Assembly (NCBI RefSeq): GCF_965641715.1
Contig: NZ_OZ282453.1
Source of the DNA: Escherichia coli
GTDB taxonomy: Bacteria > Pseudomonadota > Gammaproteobacteria > Enterobacterales > Enterobacteriaceae
DNA: 64,000 nucleotides
Reading direction: 5' to 3' (one strand)
Below are positions 4,270 to 27,742 of the stretch, one piece after another; the stretch's first letter is position 1, and every line of letters starts with the position of its first letter. The notes beneath the pieces were generated by a model, which was given only the letters and a program-made list of their open reading frames with translations, did no database searches and was not told the origin of the DNA. The position numbers and the translations under genes were made by a program.

Positions 4270-4289
4270 GTGGGTGTTGTGTTTAGGGC

Positions 4290-6817: not shown

Positions 6818-6871
6818 TTAGGCACTACATGTCTACATTTTCCCGGTCACCACCCCCTCAATCTTATGAAC

Positions 6872-8965: not shown

Positions 8966-9504
8966 GTTGCTGGTTCCTTCATCTCGCGGGGTTCTTTGAT
9001 GGGATAATTCGGTGTGCCATACTTCTGGCAGACGGTTGTCACTTTAATCTGATTACACGTTAGAAAATGAACGGTCAGGCCACAAAGCTCAGCATCGTAT
9101 TCCGGGATATCAACAATTGCGGTATGTTGAATGTAACTTTCTTTTAGTTTTTTCTCCCAGGCCTGATATTTATCCCAATCCTTATAGAGTGGTGGCGGAG
9201 GTACTGTATTTGGGGTAATTTCCCATTCAACCTGGGCTTTTAATCCAGAATGCCACTTATCTGGCAGCATAACGCAACAATATCCTCCACCGTCTCCGAA
9301 TGGACCAATATTTGGTCCGCCGTAACCATTGATGTGTATATAATTTATATCCTTATCCGTATGATTTATCCCATTAATATCCACAGCAGTGTAATCACCG
9401 CTATTTTTTGCCATTGAACAGCCTGATACTGCAAATAAAATCATTAGAGAATAACATTTGAAAATCGTTCTCATACTGATACTTTTCCTTATTTTGCTGG
9501 ACAT
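8950..9504 (-). CDS. Small lipoprotein, candidate Tle immunity protein (Tli-like)
   Basis: Lipobox-type signal peptide MRTIFKCYSLMILFAVSGC if translation starts at ATG 9474 (ORF track start 9504); 16 nt overlap with the start of the Tle1-like gene. Confidence 0.45.
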   Translation of the reverse strand: MSSKIRKSISMRTIFKCYSLMILFAVSGCSMAKNSGDYTAVDINGINHTDKDINYIHINGYGGPNIGPFGDGGGYCCVMLPDKWHSGLKAQVEWEITPNTVPPPPLYKDWDKYQAWEKKLKESYIQHTAIVDIPEYDAELCGLTVHFLTCNQIKVTTVCQKYGTPNYPIKEPREMKEPATCPAK

Positions 9505-9817
9505 GTTGCTGGTTCTTTTACTTTGAGAGATTTTAATTGATGGGTATTGTTTCTACGACAATAAAGTTTTGACAAAGAAGCAAATAAAATGCATATCTTT
9601 CGATTGTCACACATTGGAATATCGACAGAGCATTGATGATATTACGCAAAATATATTGCAGCCAAGTGAACTGACATTACGATCGAACACAAATGCAACA
9701 TGATGGATACTACCATTACATGTCGAGCTTGATTTTCCGTTTATTTCACGATTATCTCTTGATATTAACAGCTACGGACTTTTAAACAGATAAATCTCCC
9801 CGTACATCACCACAATA

Positions 9818-10588
9818 TTATCCTTCGAAGTCCCGCAAAGCTCCGAAATATTTCGCGTCATTGGCTCTGAAAGCAATATCAAGACAGTGGGCAAAATAGC
9901 TTTCCTGACTGAGTTCACTGACTGCTTTCTCCTTCATCAGGACTTCAGCGTCGCAGATACAGCCCATCAATCCCACCTGTACATCATCCACCCGATTCAT
10001 CTCCGGGTTGTCAGTAAGCCTGCGTTCTGGTGAAAAACTTCCTGATTTCCAGTTAATCTCACCATCACGGTCTAACCAGCTCCAGAACAACGCAATATCA
10101 GTAAATGTCGCCTGCTGCTCGTTAGTCAAAACATGTGTGAACAGTAAAGGGAACACCCGATTATCATAGTAACGCAGCAATCCGGTCTGTTCTTCCCACT
10201 GAACCTGTGACAATACCTGAAGATGCCGCCCCAGCAGGTCGAATGTAAGAGGGGATATCAACAAAGTAAGACGCGGCGTATCAGCAAATGACGCCATCAG
10301 TTGTGCCAGAAATTTGCGATGGCTACTGAGCGCAAAGTACAGGCGTAACACTACAGGGGAATACTCCATCGTCTCAGCTTCAGGCGTTCCTTCAAACAGG
10401 GCATACCAGTGAATGGCTGGCCACAGATGAAGTATCTCATTTTGCAAAGGTTGGTCGGTTCCAGCCTGGTCAACAAGCACATCTATGTAATCCAAACCAG
10501 CGGCAGAACAGAATGATTCAGCCTGCTTCAGCCAGATAATATATTTGTCTTGATCGGTAGCGCGTGGCGATACTGTTATCATCGTCAT
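9818..10588 (-). CDS. DUF4123-family T6SS effector adaptor/chaperone (Tap/Tec-like)
   Basis: 256 aa; N-terminal YIDVLVDQAG and central LLRYYDNRVFPLL resemble the DUF4123 signature segments (compare YAIVDGA / LMRFYDPRNIWVL in ORF 18198..19040); immediately follows a vgrG tail. Confidence 0.55.
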   Translation of the reverse strand: MTMITVSPRATDQDKYIIWLKQAESFCSAAGLDYIDVLVDQAGTDQPLQNEILHLWPAIHWYALFEGTPEAETMEYSPVVLRLYFALSSHRKFLAQLMASFADTPRLTLLISPLTFDLLGRHLQVLSQVQWEEQTGLLRYYDNRVFPLLFTHVLTNEQQATFTDIALFWSWLDRDGEINWKSGSFSPERRLTDNPEMNRVDDVQVGLMGCICDAEVLMKEKAVSELSQESYFAHCLDIAFRANDAKYFGALRDFEG

Positions 10589-10594
10589 TCTCCC

Positions 10595-11051
10595 TTATCC
10601 ACGAGGCGCAAAAGCGGCGGCGGCTTCCTGCGCCCTTTTCAGGCACTCCTTACACACCGATTTTTCTGGCGCTTCCTCACCCTCATCGTTGTTATCATTC
10701 TGATCGGACGATGCATTACTATCATTTTGCTCAGCCGCTAAACTTTTATCATCTGCCAGCGCTTTCAGAACCGCCGGTTGCAGCGTCGGCACCGGCGTTC
10801 CCGGACTACCGCCGCTATTGAGATTGATTTTCGGCCCGACGATGTCCACGCCCCCTGAATGGATGACCACAAACGAACCGCCCACCTTCAGGCTTATCCG
10901 GCTGCTGCTCTCCAGCACCACATCGCCCTCCACCTTTAACCACGCCACCGCAGTCAATGGCATCACCGGTTCTGGCGGTAGGTTTATCGTCGATAAAGGC
11001 GGAAGAGGTGTTTCCGGCTCTTAAGAAATATTTACGCACATGCACCAGCAT
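10595..11051 (-). pseudogene. Remnant fusing the 3' end of a PAAR gene to the 3' tail of a vgrG gene (internal deletion)
   Basis: One frame encodes FIDDKPTARTGDAIDCGGVV (PAAR C-terminus, compare PAAR 15133..15417); the adjacent frame encodes LKVEGDVVLESSSRISLKVGGSFVVIHSGGVDIVGPKINLNSGG (VgrG tail, compare vgrG2) followed by an acidic linker. Confidence 0.6.
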
Positions 11052-11082
11052 TACAGAAAATAAAACCTGCGATACATTTTAA

Positions 11083-11859
11083 TCAATAAGGTTGCTTTAC
11101 CAAGCTTCCATCGATATTGATGGAAAATTCATTAGACCTAATATGAACAGAATGTTGCTCATCATCTTTATCTAATATTTGATTAACAAAAAAAAACGTA
11201 TTTTTATCAAATTCATAATTATCACATCCCTCTCCACTAAATGATATAGCTCTAAAATCATATTCATTACATGAGTATCTTTTCATCAAAATAGAGAGGA
11301 ATGTTTCATTAATTGATTTTAATACAAACCATTTTCTCCTAACAAGTTTGTAGTTTAATGTTTTTATATGATAATTATTTAAACTGGGGAGAAATGAATG
11401 CATATCATTCAATTTTACATCAAAAGATATTTTTTTACCTGCCGTAATTTCCACCCATCGGCTCAAATTCAAATCAAGCTCAAAGGGACAAAAGCCTCCT
11501 AGATAGTCTAAGCTAATATTTCCTGATGTAATCAAGAATTCGTCATCACACAAAGCATCAAATACATCTCCATTTCCTTTTTGGAAGTTCTTTGGATAAT
11601 ATATTCTGGGGAGAAAATACGATTTAGTACTACTGTTATAAAAAGTTATAGTAGCTAAAATATTTTCAGCATGTGGCTTAACCACCAATTTAACAACAAC
11701 ATCATTTGTTAATTCATTACTTATATTTTCCTCTGGCGCTAAATTATGGCTAAGATAAATAATTGGTTTCCCATTGTCACTTCTTCGTTCAAAACCGAAT
11801 CTGTATTTTTTTACAAAAAGATTCTCATTATCTATTGCAATTGCAATAGATAATGGCAA
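11083..11859 (-). CDS. Hypothetical protein, candidate immunity protein for the upstream metallopeptidase-like effector; N-terminal signal peptide is out of frame
   Basis: Body ORF starts at TTG 11859; a 31-codon ORF from ATG 11923 (one nt after the effector stop) encodes MKRLAFYNLNYVVLMVFFSLFFAIIYCNCNR in the other frame; the two frames would join if one base were removed from the homopolymer tract. Confidence 0.45.
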   Translation of the reverse strand: MPLSIAIAIDNENLFVKKYRFGFERRSDNGKPIIYLSHNLAPEENISNELTNDVVVKLVVKPHAENILATITFYNSSTKSYFLPRIYYPKNFQKGNGDVFDALCDDEFLITSGNISLDYLGGFCPFELDLNLSRWVEITAGKKISFDVKLNDMHSFLPSLNNYHIKTLNYKLVRRKWFVLKSINETFLSILMKRYSCNEYDFRAISFSGEGCDNYEFDKNTFFFVNQILDKDDEQHSVHIRSNEFSINIDGSLVKQPY

Positions 11860-11924
11860 AAAACAAAGAAAAAAAAACCATCAGTACAACATAATTTAGA
11901 TTATAGAAAGCCAACCTCTTCATC

Positions 11925-12728
11925 TTATTTCCCCGTCAACTCATCAAAACATTTTTCTATCTCTTTTATTTTATCCTCTACTTTTTTTGCTAACATATTC
12001 TCATCTTGAGCTTCAATATCTTCATCATTTAATTTTATATAAAAATATCTTTCAACATTATATGCATTCTCAAATAACTGATCTTTACGCAATGTAACCA
12101 GATCATTAGCCACTGAAACATGTTTCTCATAGCTAACTTCATCCTTATTACTTGTTGCGAACTTATTAATACCCGTATAATCCTGAGTCCACATACCACC
12201 TTTTTGATTGTCACCCCAATACCAAAATATATGGGACATTTCATGGCAAAGTGTACTTACATGAGAGTCTCTACCTGTAACCGACTGTTTTATACCATGT
12301 CTGTATTCAAAATGCGCTCCGATATTTACAATGTAAGGAGGATCAAGATGTGGACTAATAAAAGCAGCAAATTCATTGCAGTTCGTATAATCTTTATAGC
12401 TTTCGATCGTCAAACCATTTGCAATCGTCATTATTCGTCTGATGCCATCCATTATGAATAGTCTCGCTTGCATTCGTTTCCCAGTATCTTCCCCAACTTT
12501 TCTGATTTTTATAATGTCCTCGCCTTTAAGGCCAAAAACTTTAATAAAATCTCGTTGTTGTTCCCCCTCCCATGACATAATATCATCTGCTCTTTTCAAT
12601 AAAACCATTTTCTGTGCTTTACAAGCCTTACTCATCATTATTTTAAATTTATTTGTAATTTTTTGCGGTACTACACATACTTGCGACTCGGGTTGTGAAG
12701 TCCCACTAGTATTATTATTCCCTGCCAT
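11925..12728 (-). CDS. HExxH zinc-metallopeptidase-like T6SS effector candidate (268 aa)
   Basis: HEMSH motif followed by WTQDYTG (loosely aspzincin-like); start ATG at 12728 (MAGNNNTSG) overlaps the vgrG2 stop; the longer ORF 11925..13103 is not used because it overlaps vgrG2. Confidence 0.55.
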   Translation of the reverse strand: MAGNNNTSGTSQPESQVCVVPQKITNKFKIMMSKACKAQKMVLLKRADDIMSWEGEQQRDFIKVFGLKGEDIIKIRKVGEDTGKRMQARLFIMDGIRRIMTIANGLTIESYKDYTNCNEFAAFISPHLDPPYIVNIGAHFEYRHGIKQSVTGRDSHVSTLCHEMSHIFWYWGDNQKGGMWTQDYTGINKFATSNKDEVSYEKHVSVANDLVTLRKDQLFENAYNVERYFYIKLNDEDIEAQDENMLAKKVEDKIKEIEKCFDELTGK

Positions 12729-15114
12729 AATGCCCCTCCGGCTCAATATAAAAAGCATCCGAAAATAACAATTGGACTTTAATTTCCTGTGCTGTATCTG
12801 TATAAAATATTTCTGTATATCCCTCTCTGTCTGTTTCACCACGCGTCTGTGTGCCATCCTCAAAAAAGGCAATATACTGCGTCTCTGAATACGGTATCCC
12901 GTCATCGTCCGTAAAATGGAACTGGAGGGTATATTTTTCAGGATCATCTTCATCGTCACCGCCATCACCTCCTCCGTCACTCCCTGCGGGATTGCCACTA
13001 TCCTCTCCGGAGTCATCACTGCCATCATCACTGCTCTCATCCTCCGGAGCCTCCAGCACCGCCGGCTGCATCGTCCCCACCGGTGTCCCCGCACTGCCCC
13101 CACCGTTCAGGTTTATCTTCGGCCCGGCAATATCCACTCCGCCCGGCTGAATGACGATAAACGAGCCACCCACCTTCAGGCTTATCCGGCTGCTGCTCTC
13201 CAGCACGATATCCCCGTCCACTTTTATCCCCAGCGCGCCACTCACCTTCTCCGCCAGGTCCCCCTTCACCTCCAGGCTGTGCTTCCCCTCCACCAGGCTG
13301 ATGTGGTTACCCGTCGTCTTATGCTCCTGCTTCCCTTTCACCGTCACCCTACGGTCATTTCTGACGTACAGACCGTCATCGTGACTCACGCTCACCGTCC
13401 GGTCATTTGTCACCTTCAGCGTCTGGTCGTTACGTACCGTTATGCTCCGGTCGTTCGCCACCGTGATACTCTGGTCGTGGCCTCCTTCTTTTCTGGTCCC
13501 GACCTCAACCGTCTGCCCCTTCACCACCGTTATCTTCTGGTCGTTACCAATGGTCTCCGTATGGTCATGTTTCACATCCGTTGTCCGGTCGTTGAGCACC
13601 TCCGTATCCATGTTCTTCTGCGCATGGATATACACCTGCTCATTACTGGTGGCGTCCTCAAAGCGCAACTCGTTAAATCCGCTTCCTTTATAGGTCTTCG
13701 ACCGTATCGTCATCTGCGTCTTCGTCCCCGGCAGGCTCCCCGGCGAACGGTTGTCCTCATGGTACGTCCGGCCCATGACCAGCGGCTGGTCCGGGTCTCC
13801 GTTCAGGAAGTCAACAATCACCTCCTGACCCACCCGCGGTATCGCCAGGTTACCAAACCCCGGCCCCGCCCACGCCTGTGATACCCGCACCCAGCATGAA
13901 CTCGCCTCCGTCATCCCGTGATAACGGTCCCAGTGGAACTTCACCCGTACCCGGCCATGTTCGTCGCAGAATATCTCCTCACCCTTCGGCCCGGTGACAA
14001 TGGCGCTCTGCGGCCCGTCCACCTTCGGTTTGCTTTGCAGCCGTGGACGCCACGTCCGGTCCGCCGGTATCACCTCTAACTGATTTCCCAGCGTGGTTCC
14101 TCTCCCCTGGCTGCCGTGCAGCGCCTGCGGCTGGCTTCCTGACAGTATGCTCTGTACCACCTGCCATTCACGGTTCAGCATCTTCTGCGGATGCCCCGTC
14201 AGCGTAAACCGCGTTCCCGGCCACAGCCTCGGCGAATTACTCTGCCCTGTGGCCTTTTCCGCATCACTGCGCAGGCTCTCCATCTGGTACAGCGTGAAAT
14301 CCTTGCCGTGCTGCTCATCCTTGAACCTTCCCGGATAATCAAATATCTCGTACTGCGCCAGCTGTCCGTTCAGGTTCTCACCCTGCTGCTCATACATCCC
14401 CGGCCAGTCCGGCACCTTAAACGTGTAATCCTGGCTCTGCACCGACGACGGGCGGACATGCGCCTCATAACGGAACATACTGAGACACTCCGTCTCCGCT
14501 CCTGCCGATGTGTCCGGGTTAAACGGAAGCTCTCCCGCCTGTGACAGCCCCGCCACATCGTCGCACAGCGTCAGCTTCTGCTCCGGACTGTCCGCCGCAA
14601 ACCGCTCAAAGAAGAAAATTCCTTCTTCCGCCCACAGCCGAGCCAGAAACGCCAGGTCGCTCTCCCCGTACTGGACACAGAACTCCCGCGCCGGATGGTC
14701 TTCATAAAACAGCGGAGTCCACTCCGTGACGCCGTTCTCGTTCAGTAACGTGGCCGATATCGTCCGGATATCCTGCTGCTGAAAAATACGAAAGTTCTGC
14801 CGCAGCCCGCACCGCCATAACGGCGGCTCAATACGCAGGTGATAACGCATCTGCCAGCCGTTGTTCTCCTGCATGCCAAAGCCCGCCACCACGCCGGTGA
14901 CATAACGCTGCGCCACCGCGCCCTGCCAGATGGCCAGCGTCGCCTTCTTCTCCAGCAGCATCTCCGCCGTCTGCATAAAAGAGTCGCTGGCAACATCCAC
15001 ACTCATCACAAACGGATAAGACTGGTTCTGGATTAACCTGAAATTCACCACTGCAAAGGTGTCCGGCTCCTGGCCGTCAATCTCCAGCGTAAAGCGCAGA
15101 CCGTTTAAGGACAT
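12715..15114 (-). CDS. vgrG: VgrG spike protein with C-terminal extension (799 aa)
   Basis: N-terminal 480 aa identical to the vgrG at 19037..20995; gp27/gp5-like repeats (VKGDLAEKVSG..., ISLKVGGSF...); acidic D/E/G/S linker and an extra ~60 aa C-terminal domain. Confidence 0.9.
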   Translation of the reverse strand: MSLNGLRFTLEIDGQEPDTFAVVNFRLIQNQSYPFVMSVDVASDSFMQTAEMLLEKKATLAIWQGAVAQRYVTGVVAGFGMQENNGWQMRYHLRIEPPLWRCGLRQNFRIFQQQDIRTISATLLNENGVTEWTPLFYEDHPAREFCVQYGESDLAFLARLWAEEGIFFFERFAADSPEQKLTLCDDVAGLSQAGELPFNPDTSAGAETECLSMFRYEAHVRPSSVQSQDYTFKVPDWPGMYEQQGENLNGQLAQYEIFDYPGRFKDEQHGKDFTLYQMESLRSDAEKATGQSNSPRLWPGTRFTLTGHPQKMLNREWQVVQSILSGSQPQALHGSQGRGTTLGNQLEVIPADRTWRPRLQSKPKVDGPQSAIVTGPKGEEIFCDEHGRVRVKFHWDRYHGMTEASSCWVRVSQAWAGPGFGNLAIPRVGQEVIVDFLNGDPDQPLVMGRTYHEDNRSPGSLPGTKTQMTIRSKTYKGSGFNELRFEDATSNEQVYIHAQKNMDTEVLNDRTTDVKHDHTETIGNDQKITVVKGQTVEVGTRKEGGHDQSITVANDRSITVRNDQTLKVTNDRTVSVSHDDGLYVRNDRRVTVKGKQEHKTTGNHISLVEGKHSLEVKGDLAEKVSGALGIKVDGDIVLESSSRISLKVGGSFIVIQPGGVDIAGPKINLNGGGSAGTPVGTMQPAVLEAPEDESSDDGSDDSGEDSGNPAGSDGGGDGGDDEDDPEKYTLQFHFTDDDGIPYSETQYIAFFEDGTQTRGETDREGYTEIFYTDTAQEIKVQLLFSDAFYIEPEGHYGRE

Positions 15115-15132
15115 AAATACCTCTCAGACATA

Positions 15133-15417
15133 TCAGCCTATATTTACCGTACCGCCACCAATGACCACACCACCACAGTCGATGGCATCACCGGTTCTGG
15201 CGGCGGGCAGGCCGTCAATAAAGACGGTTGAAGAACCTCTGGCGATTTTACGGGGATGAGGTGGATGCTTCGGTTTAGCATGCGGCGTCAGCGGATCTCC
15301 CTGGCGAGCAGCAGGTAATCCATCAATAAATACCGTGGATGAAGCCGCAATGATGACTGTCTCACGGTAGCCATCATGCTGAGTACCTTTGTCGTTTAAT
15401 CTGGCAGCTAAAGGCAT
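15133..15417 (-). CDS. PAAR-domain spike tip protein (94 aa)
   Basis: Duplicated SSTVFIDGLPAAR(Q/T)GD motifs and C-terminal AIDCGGVVIGGG; located directly upstream of vgrG2. Confidence 0.8.
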   Translation of the reverse strand: MPLAARLNDKGTQHDGYRETVIIAASSTVFIDGLPAARQGDPLTPHAKPKHPPHPRKIARGSSTVFIDGLPAARTGDAIDCGGVVIGGGTVNIG

Positions 15418-15527
15418 AATTCCTCCTGTTCAGAATATCAGCGACAAAAAATTTAAAAAACGGTAAGGTGCTTAACTCAGCAATAATCACCTTACCGGAC
15501 ATCCTGATTTGTAGCCCAACAGGTTAA

Positions 15528-16538
15528 TCAAGTAACAGGGATAAACTGACCATCAATCAGCGAAAATACCGGAGCGTAATACCCCATACGCTCTTCACCA
15601 CTTTCATCTGTAAAACGGTAAGTCAGTGGGGAATACGTTGGCATTGATTTATTATATAATTGCACCATACGCCCATTATTCATAACCCGGACGGCATAAT
15701 CGTTCCACCTGATAGGCAGTATTTTGGCTTTTCCACCCTCAAGGTTATCTTTCGGAAAGTGGGAGAGTAATATGTCATCCTCAGAGTCACCGGTTGTGGC
15801 TGACCATGCCTTCAGCGCCTCTGTGTTATATAACTTAAGACGTGCTCTGTCCCCGCTGTTAATAATTGTTGCCATTTCGGTATAGGTGGCTTTTAACTTC
15901 CGTAGCTGCTCGTCGCTTCCGGTATAGGGGGTTGCCCGCGTCCAGGCCCATTCAGGAAGCCCCGTCACCGTGACTTTTTGTGTAAACTGATACACCTTCA
16001 TCCCTTTCGGAAAATAGGTTTCATCAAAATAATCTGGATCTATAAATCCTGGCTCCGCCTGCTCTGCCAGGATCTCTTTCCTGATAACGGGATGCACGCT
16101 GTCTGACCGGGCTTCAGGTATGCCCTGCTGGTTGATGGTCACTTTTATCGAAGAAAGCAGGGTTTCTTCCTGTTTAATAAAACGAACCAAATCCAGGCTG
16201 CACCCTGCTTTTTGGAAAAAACGCCCCCGTTCTTCCGTACTGGCAGGCTTGTCAGAAAACCATCCTAACGCCCCGATTTCCAGACTGATTTCATTTTCTC
16301 CATTCGCCATCAGCATCATGGCATTGGTGCTGGATATGGCCCCGGTGGAATCACCATTCTCTCGCCATGCGTTCATTCGGTTACTGAAGCCGAGGACACC
16401 GTTGGTTTTGATGGCACAATATGATTCCTCAATATTAAACTTACTGCGGATTTTTTGTGGATTTTCACCCGAGTACAATCCTGCTCCCATAATACCTCCT
16501 GACAGTAAAATAACCGATATTAAATGTTTTACCTTCAT
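15528..16538 (-). CDS. Secreted hypothetical protein (336 aa), candidate immunity protein for the 523 aa effector
   Basis: N-terminal signal/anchor MKVKHLISVILLSGGIMGAGLYSG; immediately downstream of the effector candidate. Confidence 0.45.
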   Translation of the reverse strand: MKVKHLISVILLSGGIMGAGLYSGENPQKIRSKFNIEESYCAIKTNGVLGFSNRMNAWRENGDSTGAISSTNAMMLMANGENEISLEIGALGWFSDKPASTEERGRFFQKAGCSLDLVRFIKQEETLLSSIKVTINQQGIPEARSDSVHPVIRKEILAEQAEPGFIDPDYFDETYFPKGMKVYQFTQKVTVTGLPEWAWTRATPYTGSDEQLRKLKATYTEMATIINSGDRARLKLYNTEALKAWSATTGDSEDDILLSHFPKDNLEGGKAKILPIRWNDYAVRVMNNGRMVQLYNKSMPTYSPLTYRFTDESGEERMGYYAPVFSLIDGQFIPVT

Positions 16539-16604
16539 AATTATTTTCTCTTAAAAGGAAAAGACTCTCATTATATTGAGTGATTTTAATTGCTGTAATA
16601 TCAC

Positions 16605-18176
16605 TTAATAATCCATGCCTATTGTCCACGTTGTCACTGGCTTCGGCGGTATTACTTTTTTCTCTACCGTGCGTTCTTTACCGTATAAATTAACCCGCAA
16701 TGGTGAATCTTTTATCTCCATAGGATCACATAACTGCCACTCAACGGTATCTTTCTTCTCGGGTTTCTCACTCTTTTCTTTCCCCTTTCCCTTCCCTTTA
16801 CTTTCACCATAAGATACATCCGCCTTAAATTCGAACTTTCCTTTAATGCCGTCATGAAATAATGCCAGGTCCAGTCCGTCATCATGTGAATCGAATCCAA
16901 AGCCAGCTTTCGCCTCTATAGAAGCGGTCGCTTCTGCGGTCAGTTGTACAACAAAAACATTCGCCTCAAACGTCGCACTCACCACACCTTTTAAACCGAG
17001 CTTGATGTTACTTTCCTTTACATTAAACTCCCATTTTTTATCCTTTTCAGCGTATACTGCGCCAAGATCAAGATTAATCTCCGCTGAAATCTCGATATAG
17101 CATTCAACACTGGCTCCGTTTTTACGGAGATATTCACGACATCTGTTGACCAATGACTCGACTTTACAGTATGCACATATAAATGAAATAATATCGAATC
17201 TGAACGACGCTTCAAAAAATGGGGCACCAAACAAACCATAAAAATGACAGGGGCCATCCTGGATATCGGTATATTGATAGGCATACGATATACCCAGTTT
17301 AACGGGTTCTATTTTTGCACTGAACAATGCATATTTGCGCGTACCATTATTATTGTCAGGATCTGGCGCAAAATATTTATTGACATTCTTGACCAGAGAG
17401 TCAATTCTTCCTATCTGTTCCAGTTGCTTTGTTTGTCGAAGTTTTTTTATCTCTTTTTCATATTCACTTGTGTGTTCAACATTAGCTATTTTTACGCCAA
17501 AATCGACAGTCAGGGAAGTCTTGTTTATCCACTCAAACTCAGCAGTGGTATTTGTCCAGCCGCTACGGAGTTTATTTTTATCCCTGGGCTTGGTGTTCTC
17601 CATTGCGTCCCTGGCTTTTATTCTTTCGTCACGCCGCTCTTTTACTGTTCGCGTCTGTTTTGATGACGAAATCTCATAGCTGAACCCTGTAGTAAACCTA
17701 ATTTCCATTGTAGGATAAACATCAATTTCAACATAATTGCCACATTCGTAACAACTGTCAATTCTGACTGAATAATGGGCAGGTTCATAATGATTCTTAA
17801 GTGGAGAGGATATTGCCCCCAAATAATCCCATGGTACGCGAAATGTACCCATAGCAATTATTTCACCTTCAGACAAGTTATCATCCAAAGTGACCTTATT
17901 AGGTATTCCGAAAGGTTGCAGTATCTTATGATTATTTTCTGATTCTTCCTCTAACCATGCCTCATGTGTTCCACTTTTATCGCACTGGTAGGTAATGGTA
18001 ATTATACCATCACATCCGGAACCATCATCCAGTAGCTTAAAACGCGCCACTCCTTCTTTTGACCAGAAATGTTTCTCGCCGGCCTCTGGAAAATCACTAA
18101 TAACATCAAAAATACATGGATCAGGTATGCCGCATTCCACACAGGGCTTTCCGGCTGTCGAAGATGGAGATGTCAT
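16605..18176 (-). CDS. Unassigned T6SS effector candidate (523 aa), DUF4123-adaptor dependent
   Basis: Follows vgrG1 and a DUF4123 adaptor; no catalytic motif recognised; lysine-rich low-complexity stretch (KGKGKGKEKSEKPEKK) near the C-terminus. Confidence 0.5.
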   Translation of the reverse strand: MTSPSSTAGKPCVECGIPDPCIFDVISDFPEAGEKHFWSKEGVARFKLLDDGSGCDGIITITYQCDKSGTHEAWLEEESENNHKILQPFGIPNKVTLDDNLSEGEIIAMGTFRVPWDYLGAISSPLKNHYEPAHYSVRIDSCYECGNYVEIDVYPTMEIRFTTGFSYEISSSKQTRTVKERRDERIKARDAMENTKPRDKNKLRSGWTNTTAEFEWINKTSLTVDFGVKIANVEHTSEYEKEIKKLRQTKQLEQIGRIDSLVKNVNKYFAPDPDNNNGTRKYALFSAKIEPVKLGISYAYQYTDIQDGPCHFYGLFGAPFFEASFRFDIISFICAYCKVESLVNRCREYLRKNGASVECYIEISAEINLDLGAVYAEKDKKWEFNVKESNIKLGLKGVVSATFEANVFVVQLTAEATASIEAKAGFGFDSHDDGLDLALFHDGIKGKFEFKADVSYGESKGKGKGKEKSEKPEKKDTVEWQLCDPMEIKDSPLRVNLYGKERTVEKKVIPPKPVTTWTIGMDY

Positions 18177-18197
18177 ATAATCTATCCGTTTGTCTTT

Positions 18198-19040
18198 TTA
18201 TTGCGGGATAAATCCCAGTTCCTGTTGTGCAAGTTCATGTACCCGAATATGTCCCGGGTATGACTGATTGCTGAGTTGTTCATACCAGTCATCCGGAATA
18301 TATCTGAGATCGATTATATTTTTTTTCAGTAATATAAGCGTCATTGTTCTGACGGAACGATCATCTGCTATATTTAATGACTGGCAAAAAGAGAAATAAT
18401 CTTCTGCCAGAATTCGGGATGATTCAGCTTTTGATAAATCATCCCATCCGTCTTTATCTACATTTTCTTCGATAAATGCAGATAATATATCAAGATAATT
18501 ATCCCGTGCCTTTCGTTCCAGTTGGCTATATTGTCTGTAACTCAGCGTCAGTTGTGATGGCCGTTCTGCCCTTATATTCATAGTTTCTGCGGGACGGACG
18601 GAAGAAAAATTATCCTCACGACATTCTTCACCATAGCGGGTACTTAGCTGTCTGACGGGGCTGATAAAAGAAAGAAGCTGGCGGGGGGTCAGAACTTCCG
18701 CTAATACCCATATATTCCGGGGATCATAAAATCGCATGAGAACAGGTTTCTCCTGTTCGGGGATCATAACCCACAGATAACGTCTGAAGTGTTGCTGTAG
18801 CTCACGTATGGATGACTCAGAAGTAAGATATATTCCCCACGGCGACGCCTTATCACTCAGCCATGCTTCAACTTCCGGAACAACCTCCACGAGATAAGGG
18901 GCCAGCGCGACCAGATCCGGTTGTATGGGTTCTGCATACAGACAACAGTGCGGGGGATTCACCTCGTTCAGAAAATCCAGCAATCCTTCCTCCACAGCGC
19001 CATCCACAATGGCGTACTGCACGGGTGCCGTTTCCATCAC
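18198..19040 (-). CDS. DUF4123-family T6SS effector adaptor/chaperone
   Basis: YAIVDGA near the N-terminus and LMRFYDPRNIWVL in the middle; 4 nt overlap with the vgrG1 stop. Confidence 0.65.
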   Translation of the reverse strand: MMETAPVQYAIVDGAVEEGLLDFLNEVNPPHCCLYAEPIQPDLVALAPYLVEVVPEVEAWLSDKASPWGIYLTSESSIRELQQHFRRYLWVMIPEQEKPVLMRFYDPRNIWVLAEVLTPRQLLSFISPVRQLSTRYGEECREDNFSSVRPAETMNIRAERPSQLTLSYRQYSQLERKARDNYLDILSAFIEENVDKDGWDDLSKAESSRILAEDYFSFCQSLNIADDRSVRTMTLILLKKNIIDLRYIPDDWYEQLSNQSYPGHIRVHELAQQELGFIPQ

Positions 19041-20995
19041 TTATCCTCCTTCGGACAATGCGACACGAACATCGAACCACTTCCGGCTGCGGCTTTCAGG
19101 ATCACCGGGCGCATCGGCAGGATCACATCCCCCGGACTGCCCCCGCCGTTAAGATTGATTTTCGCGCCCTTAATATCCACGCCGCCGGAATGGATCACCA
19201 CAAATGAACCGCCCACCCGCAGACTGATTTTGCTGTCGCTCTGTAAAACAATATCGCCCTGTACGCTGATACCCAGCGCGCCGCTTATTTTCTGTGCCAG
19301 ATCGCCTTTCACCTCCAGTCCCTGATTGCCCTCTGTCAGGCTGACGTGGTCTTTGGTGGTTTTATGGTCCTGTTTACCTTCAACCGTCACTTTCCGGTCA
19401 TTTGCCACCACCAGGGATTCATCATGCCCGATGCTGACCGTCCGGTCATAGTTGACCCGCTTATCCTTGCTGTTCAGCACAACGACCTGCATATTTTTCT
19501 GTGCGTGCAGATAAATTTCTTCCTTGTCCGTGGCGTCCTCAAACCGCAGTTCGTTAAATCCGCTTCCTTTATAGGTCTTTGACCGTATCGTCATCTGCGT
19601 CTTCGTCCCCGGCAGACTCCCCGGCGAACGGTTGTCCTCATGGTATGTCCGGCCCATGATTATCGGCTGGTCCGGGTCTCCGTTCAGGAAGTCAACAATC
19701 ACCTCCTGACCCACCCGCGGTATCGCCAGGTTACCGAACCCCGGCCCCGCCCACGCCTGCGATACCCGCACCCAGCATGAACTCGCCTCCGTCATCCCGT
19801 GATAACGGTCCCAGTGGAACTTCACCCGTACCCGGCCATGTTCGTCGCAGAATATCTCCTCACCCTTCGGCCCGGTCACAATGGCACTCTGCGGCCCGTC
19901 CACCTTCGGTTTGCTTTGCAGCCGTGGACGCCACGTCCGGTCTGCCGGTATCACCTCTAACTGATTTCCCAGCGTGGTTCCCCTCCCCTGGCTGCCGTGC
20001 AGCGCCTGCGGCTGGCTTCCTGACAGTATGCTCTGTACCACCTGCCATTCACGGTTCAGCATCTTCTGCGGATGCCCCGTCAGCGTAAACCGCGTTCCCG
20101 GCCACAGCCTCGGCGAATTACTCTGCCCTGTGGCCTTTTCCGCATCACTGCGCAGGCTCTCCATCTGGTACAGCGTGAAATCCTTGCCGTGCTGCTCATC
20201 CTTGAACCTTCCCGGATAATCAAATATCTCATACTGCGCCAGCTGTCCGTTCAGGTTCTCACCCTGCTGCTCATACATCCCCGGCCAGTCCGGCACCTTA
20301 AACGTGTAATCCTGGCTCTGCACCGACGACGGGCGGACATACGCCTCATAACGGAACATACTGACACACTCTGTCTCCGCTCCTGCCGATGTGTCCGGGT
20401 TAAACGGAAGCTCTCCCGCCTGTGACAGCCCCGCCACATCGTCGCACAGCGTCAGCTTCTGCTCCGGACTGTCCGCCGCAAACCGCTCAAAGAAGAAAAT
20501 TCCCTCCTCCGCCCACAGCCGCGCCAGAAACGCCAGGTCCGACTCCCCGTACTGCACACAGAACTCCCGCGCCGGATGGTCCTCATAAAACAGCGGCGTC
20601 CACTCCGTGACGCCGTTCTCGTTCAGTAACGTGGCCGATATCGTCCGGATATCCTGCTGCTGGAAGATACGGAAGTTCTGCCGCAGCCCGCACCGCCATA
20701 ACGGCGGCTCAATACGCAGGTGATAACGCATCTGCCAGCCATTGTTCTCCTGCATACCAAAACCCGCCACCACGCCGGTGACATAACGCTGCGCCACCGC
20801 GCCCTGCCAGATGGTCAGCGTCGCCTTCTTCTCCAGCAGCATCTCCGCCGTCTGCATAAAAGAGTCGCTGGCAACATCCACACTCATCACAAACGGATAT
20901 GACTGGTTCTGGATTAACCTGAAATTCACCACTGCAAAGGTGTCCGGCTCCTGGCCGTCAATCTCCAGCGTAAAGCGCAGACCGTTTAAGGACAT
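19037..20995 (-). CDS. vgrG: VgrG spike protein (652 aa, no C-terminal extension)
   Basis: Full-length VgrG architecture; first ~480 aa identical to vgrG2, diverging in the C-terminal third. Confidence 0.9.
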   Translation of the reverse strand: MSLNGLRFTLEIDGQEPDTFAVVNFRLIQNQSYPFVMSVDVASDSFMQTAEMLLEKKATLTIWQGAVAQRYVTGVVAGFGMQENNGWQMRYHLRIEPPLWRCGLRQNFRIFQQQDIRTISATLLNENGVTEWTPLFYEDHPAREFCVQYGESDLAFLARLWAEEGIFFFERFAADSPEQKLTLCDDVAGLSQAGELPFNPDTSAGAETECVSMFRYEAYVRPSSVQSQDYTFKVPDWPGMYEQQGENLNGQLAQYEIFDYPGRFKDEQHGKDFTLYQMESLRSDAEKATGQSNSPRLWPGTRFTLTGHPQKMLNREWQVVQSILSGSQPQALHGSQGRGTTLGNQLEVIPADRTWRPRLQSKPKVDGPQSAIVTGPKGEEIFCDEHGRVRVKFHWDRYHGMTEASSCWVRVSQAWAGPGFGNLAIPRVGQEVIVDFLNGDPDQPIIMGRTYHEDNRSPGSLPGTKTQMTIRSKTYKGSGFNELRFEDATDKEEIYLHAQKNMQVVVLNSKDKRVNYDRTVSIGHDESLVVANDRKVTVEGKQDHKTTKDHVSLTEGNQGLEVKGDLAQKISGALGISVQGDIVLQSDSKISLRVGGSFVVIHSGGVDIKGAKINLNGGGSPGDVILPMRPVILKAAAGSGSMFVSHCPKEDK

Positions 20996-21215
20996 AATGA
21001 CCTCCCTGATTTATTCACGGACCAAATGATTCTCACCATGCAGCAAAGGGTGCCAGTGCAGCGTTACACTCATCTTTACATTTTCAGGTACGCTACCGCC
21101 CGGGTTTCCGGCATCCGCCATCTCCCTCATGAAAGCGTAACTCCTTACTGACACTCATTTTTTACACGTACAAAAACAACATCCTGCACGAAGGCAGGAT
21201 GTTGTTGACTCAGAT

Positions 21216-21734
21216 TTATGCTTCCAGCGGTGCACGCCAGTCATCGGCACCAGAAGTACCGGATTTGATGTGCTCCCACTCAACCTTACGGTATGCCAGT
21301 GATACTGCGAGCAATTGCGTAAACTCACGCTGTGCAGGGTCCTGGCAGTGCGGCATGTGCAGGTTCATGTCCACAATCGTCGCGTCAGTAAGACGTGTGG
21401 TGAAGTAGTGCTCCTGCTTGCCTTCAACTGAAGTACGCCACCAGTGCAGCTCCACTTTCGGCAGCATTTCACCGGAGGCCAGCGCGTTGTACAGCAGCGG
21501 AACGGCTTTGTTCAGCGCCACGGTGAAAATGAACGGTTTGTGCGCGCGCTGCCCGGAAGGTTGACCAGACTGTGGATCGGTTGGAACAGTAACGTTATGC
21601 AGAAACTCCTGCACCAGCATTTCATCTTCGTGTCCCTGCACGTAGATATTGCCGACAGAATCTGCGGTGAAAGCACCGGCAGTGATGTTCCCCTGGGTCT
21701 GACCTGTAATTGAAATGTAACATGGGGTTGGCAT
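21216..21734 (-). CDS. hcp: Hcp tube protein (172 aa)
   Basis: Hcp family sequence (MPTPCYISITGQTQGNITAGAFT...); first gene of the minus-strand hcp-vgrG cargo operon. Confidence 0.88.
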   Translation of the reverse strand: MPTPCYISITGQTQGNITAGAFTADSVGNIYVQGHEDEMLVQEFLHNVTVPTDPQSGQPSGQRAHKPFIFTVALNKAVPLLYNALASGEMLPKVELHWWRTSVEGKQEHYFTTRLTDATIVDMNLHMPHCQDPAQREFTQLLAVSLAYRKVEWEHIKSGTSGADDWRAPLEA

Positions 21735-22437
21735 TTATGAACTCCTTGTGAAATTATCAACTGCTGTTTTACGAACAACCCGTCGTTAATCCCCGACGGG
21801 TTAGAGTGTGATGCGGCTCACATCAGGAACCACACCCTTTTCTTTATTCGAGTTACAGGCACACGTAATTAGCACCTACTGAAAAACTCTTTTATGGTGT
21901 TTAAATATATTTTTAGTCAATTTCAGAACACGGTCACATAAGCTAAAAATATATCAACTTCAACAGCAGAATTATCCATAACGTATCTTCCCCCCCCATA
22001 AAAATCCACAGCCGCGTCAAAAACAAATTATTACGACACTTACTCCGCCATCGTTCCAGCACGCAATTAAGACATTCCTTAAAGGAATTTCTTATGATGT
22101 ATTGCCAGCAATTAATTAATTGATAAAACCATACATAAAACTTATTAATCAATTTAATAAATGCATATAAATCAATATATTATGGTATTTTATTAACCGT
22201 AAAATCATATTCATCAAGTCTATAAATACCAAAATTTATTTCACTATAATATATTAGCAAGGAAGAATACATCTCTTTCTAAAATATAAATAGTTCTTTT
22301 AATATTTTATTTCATGAGTAGAATACTGATCACAACAGAAGGAAGGTTACATTATCTAACTGCCACTGAAACGGTATCTTCGGTATTTTTATGCAGTACG
22401 AAAATGCTGTGCTCATGGCCTGAACGGGAACATTTTT
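21735..22437. promoter_or_regulatory. AT-rich divergent control region between hcp (-) and tssB (+)
   Basis: ~700 bp non-coding, strongly AT-rich (long A/T tracts 22080..22320), single GATC at 22328..22331; expected to hold the promoters of both T6SS operons. Confidence 0.35.
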
Positions 22438-22941
22438 ATGAGCAAAATGAACAACAATGGCGGCAGTGTCGCGCCGAAAGAAAGAATCAGCGTTCGGTAT
22501 ACACCAAAAGTTGATGGGGTGGCTGCTGATATCGAATTGCCGCTGAATTTATTGATCACCGGCAATCTGAAAGGGAAACCAGATAACACGCCGTTGGACG
22601 AGCGAACTGCCATTGCTATCAACCGCTATAACCTCAACGCAGTCATTTCAGAAGCTGACATTGAACGGGAGTTTGTTGTTCCGGCTGAACTCAGTGACGC
22701 TCCCAATGAGCAAATGTACGTCAACCTGAAAGTCAAATCTATGGATGACCTTTCTCCGGACCATATTGCCAGCCAGGTACCAGAAATAAAACGTCTTCTC
22801 GAATTGCGTGAAGCTCTGGTCGCACTTAAGTCTCCACTAGGCAATATTCCGGCCTTCCGCGCACAACTTCAGGCGCTACTGGAAAACGAAGACAGCCGCG
22901 AGCAGCTGATCCATGAACTGGGTATCGCCGTTCAGAAATAA
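22438..22941 (+). CDS. tssB: T6SS sheath small subunit TssB (VipA)
   Basis: 167 aa, TssB-like sequence; first gene of the core operon. Confidence 0.88.
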   Translation: MSKMNNNGGSVAPKERISVRYTPKVDGVAADIELPLNLLITGNLKGKPDNTPLDERTAIAINRYNLNAVISEADIEREFVVPAELSDAPNEQMYVNLKVKSMDDLSPDHIASQVPEIKRLLELREALVALKSPLGNIPAFRAQLQALLENEDSREQLIHELGIAVQK

Positions 22942-22963
22942 TTTTCACAGAAGGATTTTCAGT

Positions 22964-24448: not shown

Positions 24449-24452
24449 TCAG

Positions 24453-27738: not shown

Positions 27739-27742
27739 TTCT

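What the first reader, a model, noticed from the sequence alone, without database searches (positions are those of the whole stretch)
13660..20995. ~1.45 kb near-identical direct repeats formed by the 5' two-thirds of vgrG1 and vgrG2
13660..15114 and 19540..20995 are almost identical at the nucleotide level and in the same orientation, 5.9 kb apart, then diverge sharply in the 3' thirds that specify cargo. Homologous recombination between them would delete or duplicate the intervening adaptor-effector-immunity-PAAR cassette, a built-in mechanism for effector shuffling and a likely site of assembly collapse or strain-to-strain variation.
Basis: seen in the sequence. Interest (0 to 1): 0.4.

Follow-up and report, generated by a model that had tools for sequence, protein, structure and literature searches.

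The report
Tandem vgrG spike genes sharing recombining 5' module
Two neighbouring spike genes of an E. coli type VI secretion system share a 1.5-kb near-identical front part, and comparison with other strains shows that toxin cassettes are gained, lost and swapped by recombination there; this is real but already well known.

Summary
Window 13649-15123 and 19530-21004 are a 1,475-bp ungapped direct repeat with 38 mismatches (97.4% identity) and a 5,881-bp period.

The genes lie on the minus strand of the E. coli T6SS-1 island. The repeat runs from the ribosome-binding site through codon 489 of vgrG2 (652 aa) and vgrG1 (799 aa). This part encodes the gp27-like hub and the gp5 OB-fold.

- **Unit-length differences.** Strain A30 is collinear at about 99% but lacks exactly one repeat period. 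Two other strain pairs (PS10-3/AHM8C212RI and AHM8C212RI/ET350) also differ by exactly one vgrG module.
- **A recombinant copy.** The 5' module of vgrG2 has two parents, with the crossover at 20000-20027.
- **Recombination signal.** Seventeen copies from 12 strains are 93-100% identical whatever their cargo type, and Rmin is 35.

Three points qualify it.
- The similarity belongs to a species-wide shared module. It is not a recent duplication in this genome.
- A30 is not a simple deletion product of this window.
- The same tandem is kept at a second locus in about 153 complete genomes, so it is not especially unstable.

Multi-vgrG T6SS-1 arms and effector exchange through conserved vgrG 5' regions are already published. 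This is a new combination of known modules and is of low interest.

The parts
19530..21004 (-). Repeat copy A: the 5' module of vgrG2 (ribosome-binding site plus codons 1-489)
   Evidence: 1,475 bp, 97.4% identical to copy B. GC 0.59.
13649..15123 (-). Repeat copy B: the 5' module of vgrG1 (ribosome-binding site plus codons 1-489)
   Evidence: Its nearest sampled relative is copy A (97.4%), followed by A30 (96.5%).
20000..20027 (-). Crossover interval inside copy A. The part on the ATG side resembles 33F4 and the part towards the 3' end resembles the DUF4123-type allele of AHM8C212RI.
   Evidence: 3 mismatches in columns 1-977 against 33F4, then 36 in columns 978-1475. Against AHM_p1 there are 31 mismatches, then 3. 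Fisher p = 1e-14 (the breakpoint was chosen after looking at the data).
21216..21734 (-). hcp (tssD), the first gene of the arm
   Evidence: PF05638, 113 bits. RefSeq annotation of collinear strains.
19037..20995 (-). vgrG2, 652 aa, DUF4123-type C-terminus
   Evidence: TIGR03361 598 bits, Phage_GPD, Phage_base_V, Gp5_trimer_C.
18198..19040 (-). DUF4123 adaptor (Tap/Tec-like). It overlaps the end of vgrG2 by 4 nt.
   Evidence: PF13503, 91 bits, residues 9-122. ECUMN_0231 has the same domain span.
16605..18176 (-). 523-aa putative effector (ECUMN_0232 homologue); biochemical activity unknown
   Evidence: No Pfam, NCBIfam or PDB sequence match. 37 homologues, those with a named source all Enterobacterales. 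AF2 pLDDT 69, with no convincing fold match.
15528..16538 (-). 336-aa putative immunity protein (ECUMN_0233 homologue) with an N-terminal signal-like segment
   Evidence: The N-terminus MKVKHLISVILLSGGIMG compares with MKAKHLISVILLSGVVMG in PMC11114119.
15133..15417 (-). PAAR spike-tip protein, 18 nt upstream of vgrG1
   Evidence: PF05488, 73.8 bits. The immunity-PAAR-vgrG junction is present in 153 complete genomes.
12715..15114 (-). vgrG1, 799 aa. It has a longer beta-helix, an acidic linker and a C-terminal extension of about 90 aa.
   Evidence: TIGR03361 599 bits. The C-terminal extension has no family match.
11925..12728 (-). Putative M35-like zinc metallopeptidase effector (HEMSH motif). 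It overlaps the end of vgrG1 by 14 nt.
   Evidence: RefSeq names the orthologue 'M35 family metalloendopeptidase'. Pfam Aspzincin_M35 scores only 19.8 bits, below the 30-bit cut-off. The motif is visible in the translation.
11083..11859 (-). Putative immunity gene for the M35 effector. Its 5' end is frameshifted relative to A30 by a T9 versus T8 run near 11877.
   Evidence: The function is inferred from position only.
10595..10966 (-). C-terminal remnant of a third, Tle1-type vgrG
   Evidence: RefSeq annotates a vgrG pseudogene missing its N-terminus in A30 and 33F4. The intact 743-aa counterpart is in FEX669.
6872..10588 (-). Older cargo module: DUF4123 adaptor (9818-10588), Tli1a-family/DUF3304 immunity (8950-9504) and Tle1 phospholipase (6872-8965)
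   Evidence: PF13503. NF053804, 211 bits. PF22137 and PF09994.

Best explanation
The repeat is the shared 5' module of two paralogous spike genes in the hcp-vgrG arm of the E. coli T6SS-1 island, which lies between aspV and yafV.

**What each part encodes.** The shared module encodes the structural part of VgrG: the gp27-like hub and the gp5 OB-fold. It ends at the first turns of the beta-helix. Every spike needs this part to sit on the Hcp tube and in the baseplate. The divergent 3' part encodes the rest of the beta-helix and the tail, and it heads its own cargo cassette.
- vgrG2 is followed by a DUF4123 adaptor, a 523-aa effector, an immunity gene and PAAR.
- vgrG1 is followed by an M35-like metallopeptidase and an immunity gene.
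- A decayed third module follows: a vgrG remnant, DUF4123, Tli1 and Tle1.

**How it works.** The 5' module is kept 93-100% identical across E. coli strains and cargo types. It therefore serves as a portable homology anchor. RecA-type homologous recombination within it attaches new 3'-end-plus-cargo units, stacks them in tandem, or removes exactly one repeat period. The arm thus behaves as an array of 1-3 modules without any integrase.

**Shown here**
- The repeat, the domain content and the cassette content.
- Unit-length presence/absence differences among strains.
- A crossover inside the repeat.
- Pervasive mosaicism of the 5' module.

**Inferred**
- The enzymology (RecA dependence).
- The direction of each event.
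- That both spikes load their neighbouring cargo.
- That the unnamed proteins are a toxin and its immunity protein.
For: - **Repeat.**
- **Identity of the genes.** (VgrG, Hcp, PAAR and DUF4123 above curated cut-offs). The alignment to P. aeruginosa VgrG1 (4MTK) places the end of the repeat at the FNE(L/I)R(F/M)ED motif, where the beta-helix begins.
- **Locus.** E. coli T6SS-1, between yafV and aspV.
- **Unit-length differences.**
  - Window 1-15123 matches A30 1-15122, and window 19530-37330 matches A30 13648-31447. A30 therefore lacks exactly 5,881 bp and has no extra bases.
  - AHM8C212RI equals PS10-3 plus 5,825 bp, and ET350 equals AHM8C212RI plus about 6.46 kb. Both differences are bounded by the same repeat.
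- **Nested series.** FEX669 carries one Tle1 module. A30 and 33F4 carry the M35 module plus a truncated Tle1-type vgrG. The window carries the DUF4123 module, the M35 module and the remnant.
- **Recombinant copy.** The vgrG2 5' module is 33F4-like over columns 1-977 (3 mismatches) and AHM_p1-like over columns 1006-1475 (3 mismatches).
- **Recombination signal.** Among 112 informative sites, 54% of site pairs fail the four-gamete test. Rmin is 35, and a PHI-like permutation test gives p < 0.001.
- **Decoupling from cargo.** Similarity of the 5' module does not follow cargo type. For example, the DUF2169-type copy of ET350 is 99.4% identical to the DUF6484-type copy of ETEC6335.
- **Local excess divergence.** Divergence between the window and A30 is 3.5-3.8% inside the repeat and 0.4-0.6% in the DNA directly flanking it.
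- **Foreign composition of cargo.** Cargo genes have GC 0.29-0.46, against 0.59 for the repeat.
- **Published precedent.** PMC5361080, PMC10711316, PMC6730261, PMC11114119.
Against: - **No event is observed.** Only its footprints in different strains are seen.
- **A30 is not a simple derivative.** It is not a single-crossover product of the window's two copies. At the 38 diagnostic sites its pattern is 22112222222111112221111111122222111111. At 35 further sites the two window copies agree with each other but differ from A30. Direction (gain or loss) and the number of steps are therefore unresolved.
- **The parent of vgrG1's 5' module is unsampled.** Its best match is 97.4%.
- **The tandem can be stable.** It persists at about 90% identity in a second locus, and its junction is in 153 genomes. 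The repeats evidently do not make it very unstable, and the 2.6% divergence would reduce recombination through mismatch repair (established knowledge).
- **Cargo functions are unverified.** The toxicity of the 523-aa protein and the peptidase activity of the M35-like protein rest on position, a motif and annotation.
- **The sample is limited.** The comparison set is 12 loci chosen from BLAST hits, not a phylogenetically controlled sample.
Confidence: 0.85

Rival explanations
1. The repeat arose by a recent tandem duplication of a single vgrG in this genome. The 3' ends then diverged rapidly and new cargo was captured.
For: The copies are in the same orientation and adjacent. Copy B's nearest sampled relative is copy A (97.4% against 96.5% for A30).
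Against: - Each vgrG type exists as the only vgrG in other strains: the M35 type in A30 and 33F4, and the DUF4123 type in EC1.
- Copy A is as close to copies in other strains (97.7% to AHM_p1 and ES5) as it is to copy B.
- Its first 977 nt differ from 33F4 at only 3 positions.
- No site is shared privately by the two window copies.
- The homology boundary of the DUF4123 type falls at the same position in the window, CFT073, AHM8C212RI and ET350, so the junction is old.
- dS of 0.09 does not indicate a recent duplication.
Confidence: 0.03
2. The near-identity is kept up mainly by gene conversion between the two copies within this genome (concerted evolution), rather than by exchange among strains.
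For: - Copy B is closer to copy A than to any orthologue sampled.
- In the last ~420 columns of the module, copy B is closer to copy A and other DUF4123-type alleles (5-8 mismatches per 225 nt) than to the M35-type alleles of A30 and 33F4 (12-19 mismatches).
- The longest identical tract, 248 nt, is marginally longer than random placement of the mismatches predicts (p = 0.03).
- The two CFT073 copies share 10 private sites.
Against: - The window copies share no private sites.
- Copy A is explained without conversion, as a recombinant of 33F4-like and AHM-like parents.
- The CFT073 signal may only reflect the single sampled representative of that locus.
- 38 differences remain between the window copies.
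Confidence: 0.1
3. The similarity reflects purifying selection on the structural core alone, and the repeats play no part in rearrangement.
For: dN/dS is 0.08, and only 5 of the 489 shared residues differ. The core must fit the Hcp tube and the baseplate (established knowledge).
Against: - Synonymous sites are conserved as well (dS 0.09), whereas the adjacent 3' part falls to about 60% amino-acid identity.
- Differences among strains are exactly one repeat period long.
- Four-gamete failures, Rmin of 35 and the two-parent structure of copy A show recombination inside the module.
Confidence: 0.02
4. The tandem is an assembly artefact, in which two alternative vgrG arms from a mixed sample or a mis-join were concatenated at the shared repeat.
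For: Multiple vgrG copies are known to break or confuse short-read assemblies (PMC10711316). No complete E. coli genome of the 5,426 searched carries this exact array at T6SS-1.
Against: - Every junction is seen independently in complete genomes. hcp-vgrG(DUF4123) is in EC1, AHM8C212RI and ET350. The immunity-PAAR-vgrG junction is in 153 genomes. The whole order vgrG652 ... PAAR-vgrG(M35)-M35 is in CFT073.
- The two copies differ at 38 sites, and all reading frames are intact.
Confidence: 0.03

Closest known systems
Vibrio cholerae vgrG-3 and auxiliary-cluster effector-immunity module exchange ('sequential displacement'; Kirchberger et al. 2017, PMC5361080; Unterweger et al. 2014)
   Same: A conserved vgrG 5' region is tipped with variable 3' regions and cargo. 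New modules enter by homologous recombination in the conserved part, older components are pushed downstream, and larger arrays result. In the window, the vgrG remnant plus the Tle1 module downstream of the M35 module fits this model.
   Different: Here whole vgrG genes are stacked in tandem, 1-3 per arm, and each later one is preceded by PAAR. The displaced module still keeps its effector (Tle1) rather than only an orphan immunity gene. The organism is also different (E. coli T6SS-1).
E. coli T6SS-1 loci with several vgrG genes and 'vgrG islands' (Cummins et al. 2023, PMC10711316; Ma et al. 2018 as cited in PMC6730261)
   Same: ST131 T6SS-1 is described with three different vgrG genes. Each is followed by putative effectors, including DUF4123- and DUF2235/Tle1-type proteins. 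Multiple vgrG copies are noted to fragment assemblies. Orphan vgrG islands that carry toxin modules are also described.
   Different: This particular combination (DUF4123 module, M35 module and Tle1 remnant at T6SS-1) was not found in 5,426 complete genomes. The passages of those papers that I read do not describe unit-length differences or crossovers within the 5' module.
ECUMN_0231-0233 chaperone/effector/immunity system of UPEC UMN026 (PMC11114119)
   Same: The cassette between the repeats is its homologue. The DUF4123 domain spans residues 9-122 in both. The adaptor gene overlaps the end of vgrG in both (4 nt here; the paper's figure legend says 3 nt). The immunity proteins have the same N-terminus, and the effector has no known domain.
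   Different: In the window the cassette is followed by PAAR and a second vgrG. In EC1-type strains it is followed by ISAs1 remnants. The window's immunity protein has no lipobox cysteine.
CFT073 / Nissle 1917-type orphan vgrG island between yncG and yddH
   Same: The order is the same: vgrG(652 aa), DUF4123, effector, immunity, PAAR, vgrG(about 800 aa), M35 peptidase. It is collinear with window 12811-21004 at about 90% identity.
   Different: It lies at a different chromosomal locus, away from the T6SS core. A PAAR gene also precedes the first vgrG, so the repeat unit there is about 1.8 kb (PAAR plus the vgrG 5' module). The two copies are 95.2% identical.
Near-identical vgrG paralogues of Agrobacterium tumefaciens 1D1609 (Santos et al. 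2020, PMC6971182)
   Same: Multiple VgrGs have highly similar N-terminal parts, and C-terminal divergence determines which effector is delivered.
   Different: Those paralogues are dispersed, and three of them are also identical at the C-terminus. That paper does not discuss recombination.

Membership tests
T6SS spike protein VgrG/TssI | gp27-like hub, gp5 OB-fold and gp5 C-terminal beta-helix, scoring above the curated family cut-off | tested here: met
   Both proteins score as follows: TIGR03361 about 599 bits (cut-off 186), PF05954 254 bits, PF04717 52-54 bits, PF22178 82-109 bits. Homology to solved VgrG1 4MTK has E = 4e-89.
T6SS spike protein VgrG/TssI | Genetic linkage to hcp and the T6SS core genes | tested here: met
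   hcp lies 220 nt upstream of vgrG2. ORFs that match the tssB-tssM genes annotated in the collinear strains A30 and EC1 run from 22438 to about 40159.
DUF4123 (Tap/Tec) adaptor-dependent cargo module | A DUF4123 gene immediately downstream of vgrG, followed by effector and immunity genes | tested here: met
   PF13503, 91 bits, with a 4-nt overlap with vgrG2. The next two genes are homologues of ECUMN_0232 and ECUMN_0233.
DUF4123 (Tap/Tec) adaptor-dependent cargo module | The effector is toxic and is neutralised by the neighbouring immunity protein | not testable with these tools
   No family or fold could be assigned to the 523-aa protein. The published evidence is bioinformatic plus strain-level competition assays.
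Repeat-mediated homologous recombination (unequal crossover or pop-out between direct repeats) | Direct orientation, and perfect-identity tracts well above the minimal processing segment of about 25-30 nt | tested here: met
   1,475 bp in direct orientation. Thirteen perfect tracts are at least 30 nt long, and the longest is 248 nt. The threshold comes from established knowledge.
Repeat-mediated homologous recombination (unequal crossover or pop-out between direct repeats) | Natural variants that differ by exactly one repeat period, with no other scar | tested here: met
   Window against A30, 5,881 bp. AHM8C212RI against PS10-3, 5,825 bp, and ET350 against AHM8C212RI, about 6.46 kb. No inverted repeats of 40 nt or more lie in 12000-24000.
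Repeat-mediated homologous recombination (unequal crossover or pop-out between direct repeats) | A chimeric repeat copy with an internal breakpoint | tested here: met
   The vgrG2 5' module is 33F4-like, then AHM_p1-like, with the switch at columns 978-1005 (window 20000-20027).
Repeat-mediated homologous recombination (unequal crossover or pop-out between direct repeats) | Events observed within a population of this strain, with dependence on RecA | not testable with these tools
   This needs reads or experiments.
Sequential displacement of effector-immunity modules (Kirchberger model) | Remnants of an older vgrG or cargo module downstream of the newer module | tested here: met
   vgrG C-terminal remnant at 10595-10966, followed by DUF4123, Tli1 and Tle1. 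The intact form is in FEX669.
Sequential displacement of effector-immunity modules (Kirchberger model) | The old effector is lost while an orphan immunity gene is kept | tested here: not met
   The Tle1 effector ORF of the older module is still full length, at 697 aa.
Concerted evolution by intragenomic gene conversion | Paralogues in one genome share derived substitutions that are absent elsewhere | tested here: not met
   The window pair shares 0 private sites. The CFT073 pair shares 10, but only one genome was sampled for that locus.

The most novel reading that the evidence does not exclude
The hcp-vgrG arm of E. coli T6SS-1 may work as an ordered cassette array without an integrase. In this reading the PAAR plus vgrG 5' module is a portable homology anchor that brings whole spike-plus-cargo units in, mostly at the hcp-proximal end. 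The array would then record the order of acquisition, as in FEX669, then A30, then this window, and its module count would turn over fast enough to serve as a strain-typing marker. This would extend the Vibrio 'sequential displacement' idea to stacked, complete vgrG genes. The ET350, AHM8C212RI and PS10-3 series shows that an internal module can also differ, so strict polarity is doubtful.
Probability: 0.25. Interest if true: 0.4.

Novelty: new member of a known kind. Interest (0 to 1): 0.22.

Why it matters
**Practical value**
- The 1.5-kb module is present at full length in 685 of 5,426 complete E. coli genomes. In every row I inspected it came with at least one further matching place, although some of those may be weaker partial matches.
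- It will break or collapse short-read assemblies. It can also cause vgrG genes to be annotated as pseudogenes, as in EC1.
- Effector repertoires should therefore be read from long-read assemblies.

**Biological value**
- The strain series gives a clear E. coli example of how T6SS arsenals are rebuilt by homologous recombination at a conserved structural gene segment.
- One crossover can be mapped to a 28-nt interval.

None of this changes current understanding. Conserved 5' and variable 3' vgrG architecture, multi-vgrG T6SS-1 loci and recombination-driven module exchange are all published.

Tried and rejected
- **A30 as a one-step deletion product.** I tested this by typing A30 at the 38 diagnostic sites. 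The pattern is mosaic, and 35 further sites separate A30 from both window copies, so I rejected it.
- **Private shared substitutions between the two window copies.** I looked for these as proof of intragenomic gene conversion and found none.
- **The same array elsewhere.** No complete E. coli genome matches at least 80% of window 11000-23000 in one place.
- **Promoter and terminator scan of 10500-22600.** Counts were close to the shuffled expectation (25 promoter-like sites against 19.5 ± 4.1; 14 terminator-like sites against 10.4 ± 2.8). Nothing marks a boundary between modules.
- **Function of the 523-aa effector.**
  - There is no hit in Pfam, NCBIfam or PDB sequences.
  - The AF2 model from 26 homologues has pLDDT 69 and pTM 0.60.
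  - Foldseek against the PDB gives nothing below E = 0.008, with TM-scores of at most 0.14 normalised to the query.
- **C-terminal extension of vgrG1.** It has no Pfam match. I recalled the transthyretin-like cargo-binding domain of EAEC VgrG1 as an analogy, but it is not supported by any test here. The solved EAEC VgrG1 (6SJL) aligns only over residues 42-506.
- **M35 assignment.** Pfam scores it below its cut-off (19.8 against 30 bits), so the protein is called 'M35-like'. That name rests on the HEMSH motif and on RefSeq naming.

Full report
**1. The observation**

A self-comparison of the window finds one long repeat. It is 13649-15123 against 19530-21004: 1,475 bp, ungapped, 38 mismatches, 97.4% identity, direct orientation and a period of 5,881 bp.

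Both copies lie in minus-strand ORFs. vgrG1 runs from 15114 down to 12715 (799 aa) and vgrG2 from 20995 down to 19037 (652 aa). The repeat begins 9 nt before each ATG and includes a shared GAGG ribosome-binding site. It ends after codon 489.

Differences are mostly synonymous. Thirty of the 40 differing codon positions counted over codons 1-490 are third positions. There are 6 amino-acid changes, one of them at codon 490 just past the repeat. Over codons 1-489, dS = 0.092 and dN = 0.007.

After codon 489 identity collapses within about 45 nt. The two 3' parts still encode related gp5-type beta-helices. They align at 61% amino-acid identity over 138 columns, with vgrG1 carrying 54 extra residues, and their tails are unrelated.

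**2. What the genes are**

Both proteins exceed the curated cut-offs of the VgrG families (TIGR03361 about 599 bits, Phage_GPD, Phage_base_V, Gp5_trimer_C). They align to solved VgrG1 of P. aeruginosa. That alignment places the end of the repeat at the conserved FNE(L/I)R(F/M)ED motif, where the beta-helical spike starts. The shared module therefore equals the gp27-like hub plus the gp5 OB-fold.

The arm is transcribed leftwards. Its gene order is:
- hcp (21734-21216)
- vgrG2
- DUF4123 adaptor (19040-18198; PF13503, 91 bits)
- a 523-aa protein (18176-16605)
- a 336-aa protein (16538-15528)
- PAAR (15417-15133; PF05488)
- vgrG1
- an M35-like protein with an HEMSH motif (12728-11925)
- a 258-aa ORF (11859-11083)
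- a vgrG C-terminal remnant (10966-10595)
- a second DUF4123 gene (10588-9818)
- a Tli1a-family/DUF3304 protein (9504-8950)
- a Tle1 phospholipase (8965-6872)
- ISAs1 remnants, then yafV, ivy and fadE

The T6SS core genes run rightwards from 22438. tRNA-Asp (aspV) at 43483-43559 marks the far end of the island.

The cassette between the repeats is the homologue of ECUMN_0231-0233 of UPEC UMN026, which was proposed as a chaperone/effector/immunity system. The DUF4123 domain spans the same residues in both, and the immunity proteins have the same N-terminus.

Intergenic gaps are short or negative. A consensus scan shows no excess of terminator-like sites. This is compatible with one operon, but that is an inference.

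**3. Organism and comparative evidence**

The window is E. coli. Positions 1-13700 are 99.2% identical to strains A30, JX21CE8, 23CRST031 and ECNB21-M121. The T6SS core is at least 99% identical to 17 complete genomes. No complete genome of the 5,426 searched contains the window's array in one piece.

Strain A30 is collinear with the window on both sides. Window 1-15123 matches A30 1-15122, and window 19530-37330 matches A30 13648-31447. A30 carries a single vgrG of the M35 type next to hcp. It therefore lacks exactly one repeat period and has no scar.

A second, independent series shows the same thing.
- PS10-3, ES5, 1504D004, ETEC6335 and A16 have hcp followed by a DUF6484/DUF2169-type vgrG.
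- AHM8C212RI has the DUF4123 module plus PAAR inserted in front of that vgrG.
- ET350 has three modules.

Pairwise alignments show that AHM8C212RI equals PS10-3 plus 5,825 bp and that ET350 equals AHM8C212RI plus about 6.46 kb. Both differences have their end-points inside the vgrG 5' module.

FEX669 carries an intact 743-aa Tle1-type vgrG, of which the window keeps only the last ~300-370 nt; homology to the FEX669 gene covers 296 nt. This gives a nested series from FEX669, through A30 and 33F4, to the window.

The same tandem order also occurs at a different locus in CFT073, between yncG and yddH. The order there is vgrG652, DUF4123, effector, immunity, PAAR, an M35-type vgrG and the M35 gene. 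It is about 90% identical to the window. Its immunity-PAAR-vgrG junction is present at full length in 153 complete genomes.

**4. History of the repeat**

I extracted 17 copies of the 1,475-nt module from 12 strains. All are 93.4-100% identical, and similarity does not follow cargo type. For example, the DUF2169-type copy of ET350 is 99.4% identical to the DUF6484-type copy of ETEC6335. The window's copy A is 97.7% identical to both a DUF4123-type copy and a DUF6484-type copy in other strains.

The point at which homology ends is specific to the cargo type and reproducible across genomes. The DUF4123 type departs at about nt 1475. The M35, DUF6484 and DUF2169 types share a further 100-140 nt with each other. 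The junction is therefore old and was not made in this genome.

Recombination inside the module is pervasive. Of 112 informative sites, 54% of site pairs fail the four-gamete test. Rmin is 35, and a PHI-like permutation test gives p < 0.001.

The clearest trace is in the window's own copy A.
- Against 33F4, a single-module M35 strain, it has 3 mismatches in columns 1-977 and 36 in columns 978-1475.
- Against the DUF4123-type copy of AHM8C212RI it has 31 mismatches and then 3.
- The crossover lies at window 20000-20027, codons 323-332.

So the DUF4123-type 3' end and its cargo were joined to a resident hcp-proximal vgrG by a crossover inside the repeat.

Divergence between the window and A30 is 3.5-3.8% inside the module but 0.4-0.6% in the DNA directly flanking it. 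A30's copy is mosaic with respect to the window's two copies, and it differs from both at 35 sites where they agree. A30 and the window are therefore not related by a single recent event.

Evidence for intragenomic gene conversion in the window is weak.
- Copy B's nearest relative is copy A.
- The two copies share no private sites.
- The longest identical tract, 248 nt, is only marginally unusual (p = 0.03).

Cargo genes have much lower GC (0.29-0.46) than the module (0.59). This is consistent with horizontally acquired cargo attached to a conserved native segment.

**5. Mechanism**

*Shown:* the arm is an array of spike-plus-cargo modules. Each module begins with the same 1.5-kb segment. Strains differ by whole modules whose end-points lie in that segment, and at least one crossover within it is preserved.

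*Inferred, from established knowledge of RecA-dependent recombination and from the published Vibrio model (PMC5361080):*
- Homologous recombination in this segment adds, swaps and deletes modules. This may occur between incoming DNA and the chromosome, between sister chromosomes, or within one chromosome.
- Purifying selection on the hub and OB-fold keeps the segment similar enough to recombine (dN/dS 0.08).
- Recombination in turn spreads alleles of the segment among cargo types.

*Functional expectation (not tested here):* each VgrG is expected to load its neighbouring cargo through its own C-terminal region. This rests on published work cited in PMC6971182.

*Stability:* the tandem persists in a second locus at 10% divergence and across 153 genomes. 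Together with the 2.6% mismatch between the copies, this argues that pop-out is not frequent.

**6. Comparison with what is known, and verdict**

The following are already described:
- conserved 5' and variable 3' vgrG architecture with recombination-driven module exchange (PMC5361080)
- E. coli T6SS-1 loci with three vgrG genes, each followed by effectors, and assembly fragmentation caused by multiple vgrG copies (PMC10711316)
- vgrG islands (PMC6730261)
- the DUF4123 cassette itself (PMC11114119)

What is specific here is the particular combination of modules. The strain series and the mapped crossover also make the mechanism unusually explicit for E. coli.

The finding is real, and its interpretation is mostly right. 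It is, however, an ordinary instance of a known phenomenon. I rate it a new member of a known kind, with low interest.

Noticed in passing
window ~11869-11877 (minus-strand gene 11083-11922): The putative immunity gene downstream of the M35-like effector has a run of 9 T where strain A30 has 8. This shifts the frame at about codon 16, so the window's ORF restarts at a TTG (11859; 258 aa against 279 aa in A30). It could be a homopolymer sequencing error, a slip-strand switch or a real inactivation.
   Followed up: partly
window 10595-10966, and 10766-10938 vs 13054-13226: A C-terminal remnant of a third, Tle1-type vgrG sits in front of an apparently intact DUF4123-Tli1-Tle1 module. It forms a further short direct repeat with vgrG1 (173 nt, 80% identity). 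The intact 743-aa counterpart is in strain FEX669.
   Followed up: yes
[not shown]
   Followed up: partly
window 15528-16538 (-): The putative immunity protein starts MKVKHLISVILLSGGIMGAG and has no cysteine near that segment. It therefore cannot be a lipoprotein, although a lipoprotein signal peptide was predicted for its UMN026 homologue ECUMN_0233 in PMC11114119.
   Followed up: partly
window 4320-4516 and 5787-6760: Decayed ISAs1 transposase fragments lie at the yafV end of the island. Positions 4321-4515 and 6241-6435 are 81.5% identical. In EC1-type strains ISAs1 copies and a group II intron truncate the arm directly after the DUF4123 cassette.
   Followed up: partly
window 43483-43559 and 51706-51782: Two tRNA-Asp(GTC) genes differ at one base. 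The first (aspV) borders the T6SS island. The second lies next to an rRNA operon, whose tRNA-Ala and tRNA-Ile are at 55133-55327. This is the ordinary E. coli gene map.
   Followed up: partly
window 31693-34425 (+); L002 25810-28542: tssH (clpV) is an intact 910-aa ORF in the window. In the otherwise 99%-identical strain A30 it is annotated with an internal stop. In EC1 the vgrG is annotated as a pseudogene. T6SS-1 therefore appears to be inactivated in some of the close relatives.
   Followed up: no
L003 (CFT073) 12034-12318 and 17874-18158: In the CFT073-type orphan island both vgrG genes are preceded by a PAAR gene. The direct repeat there is about 1.8 kb (PAAR plus the vgrG 5' module). Its two vgrG 5' modules share 10 substitutions seen in no other sampled copy, which is a possible sign of concerted evolution at that locus.
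   Followed up: partly
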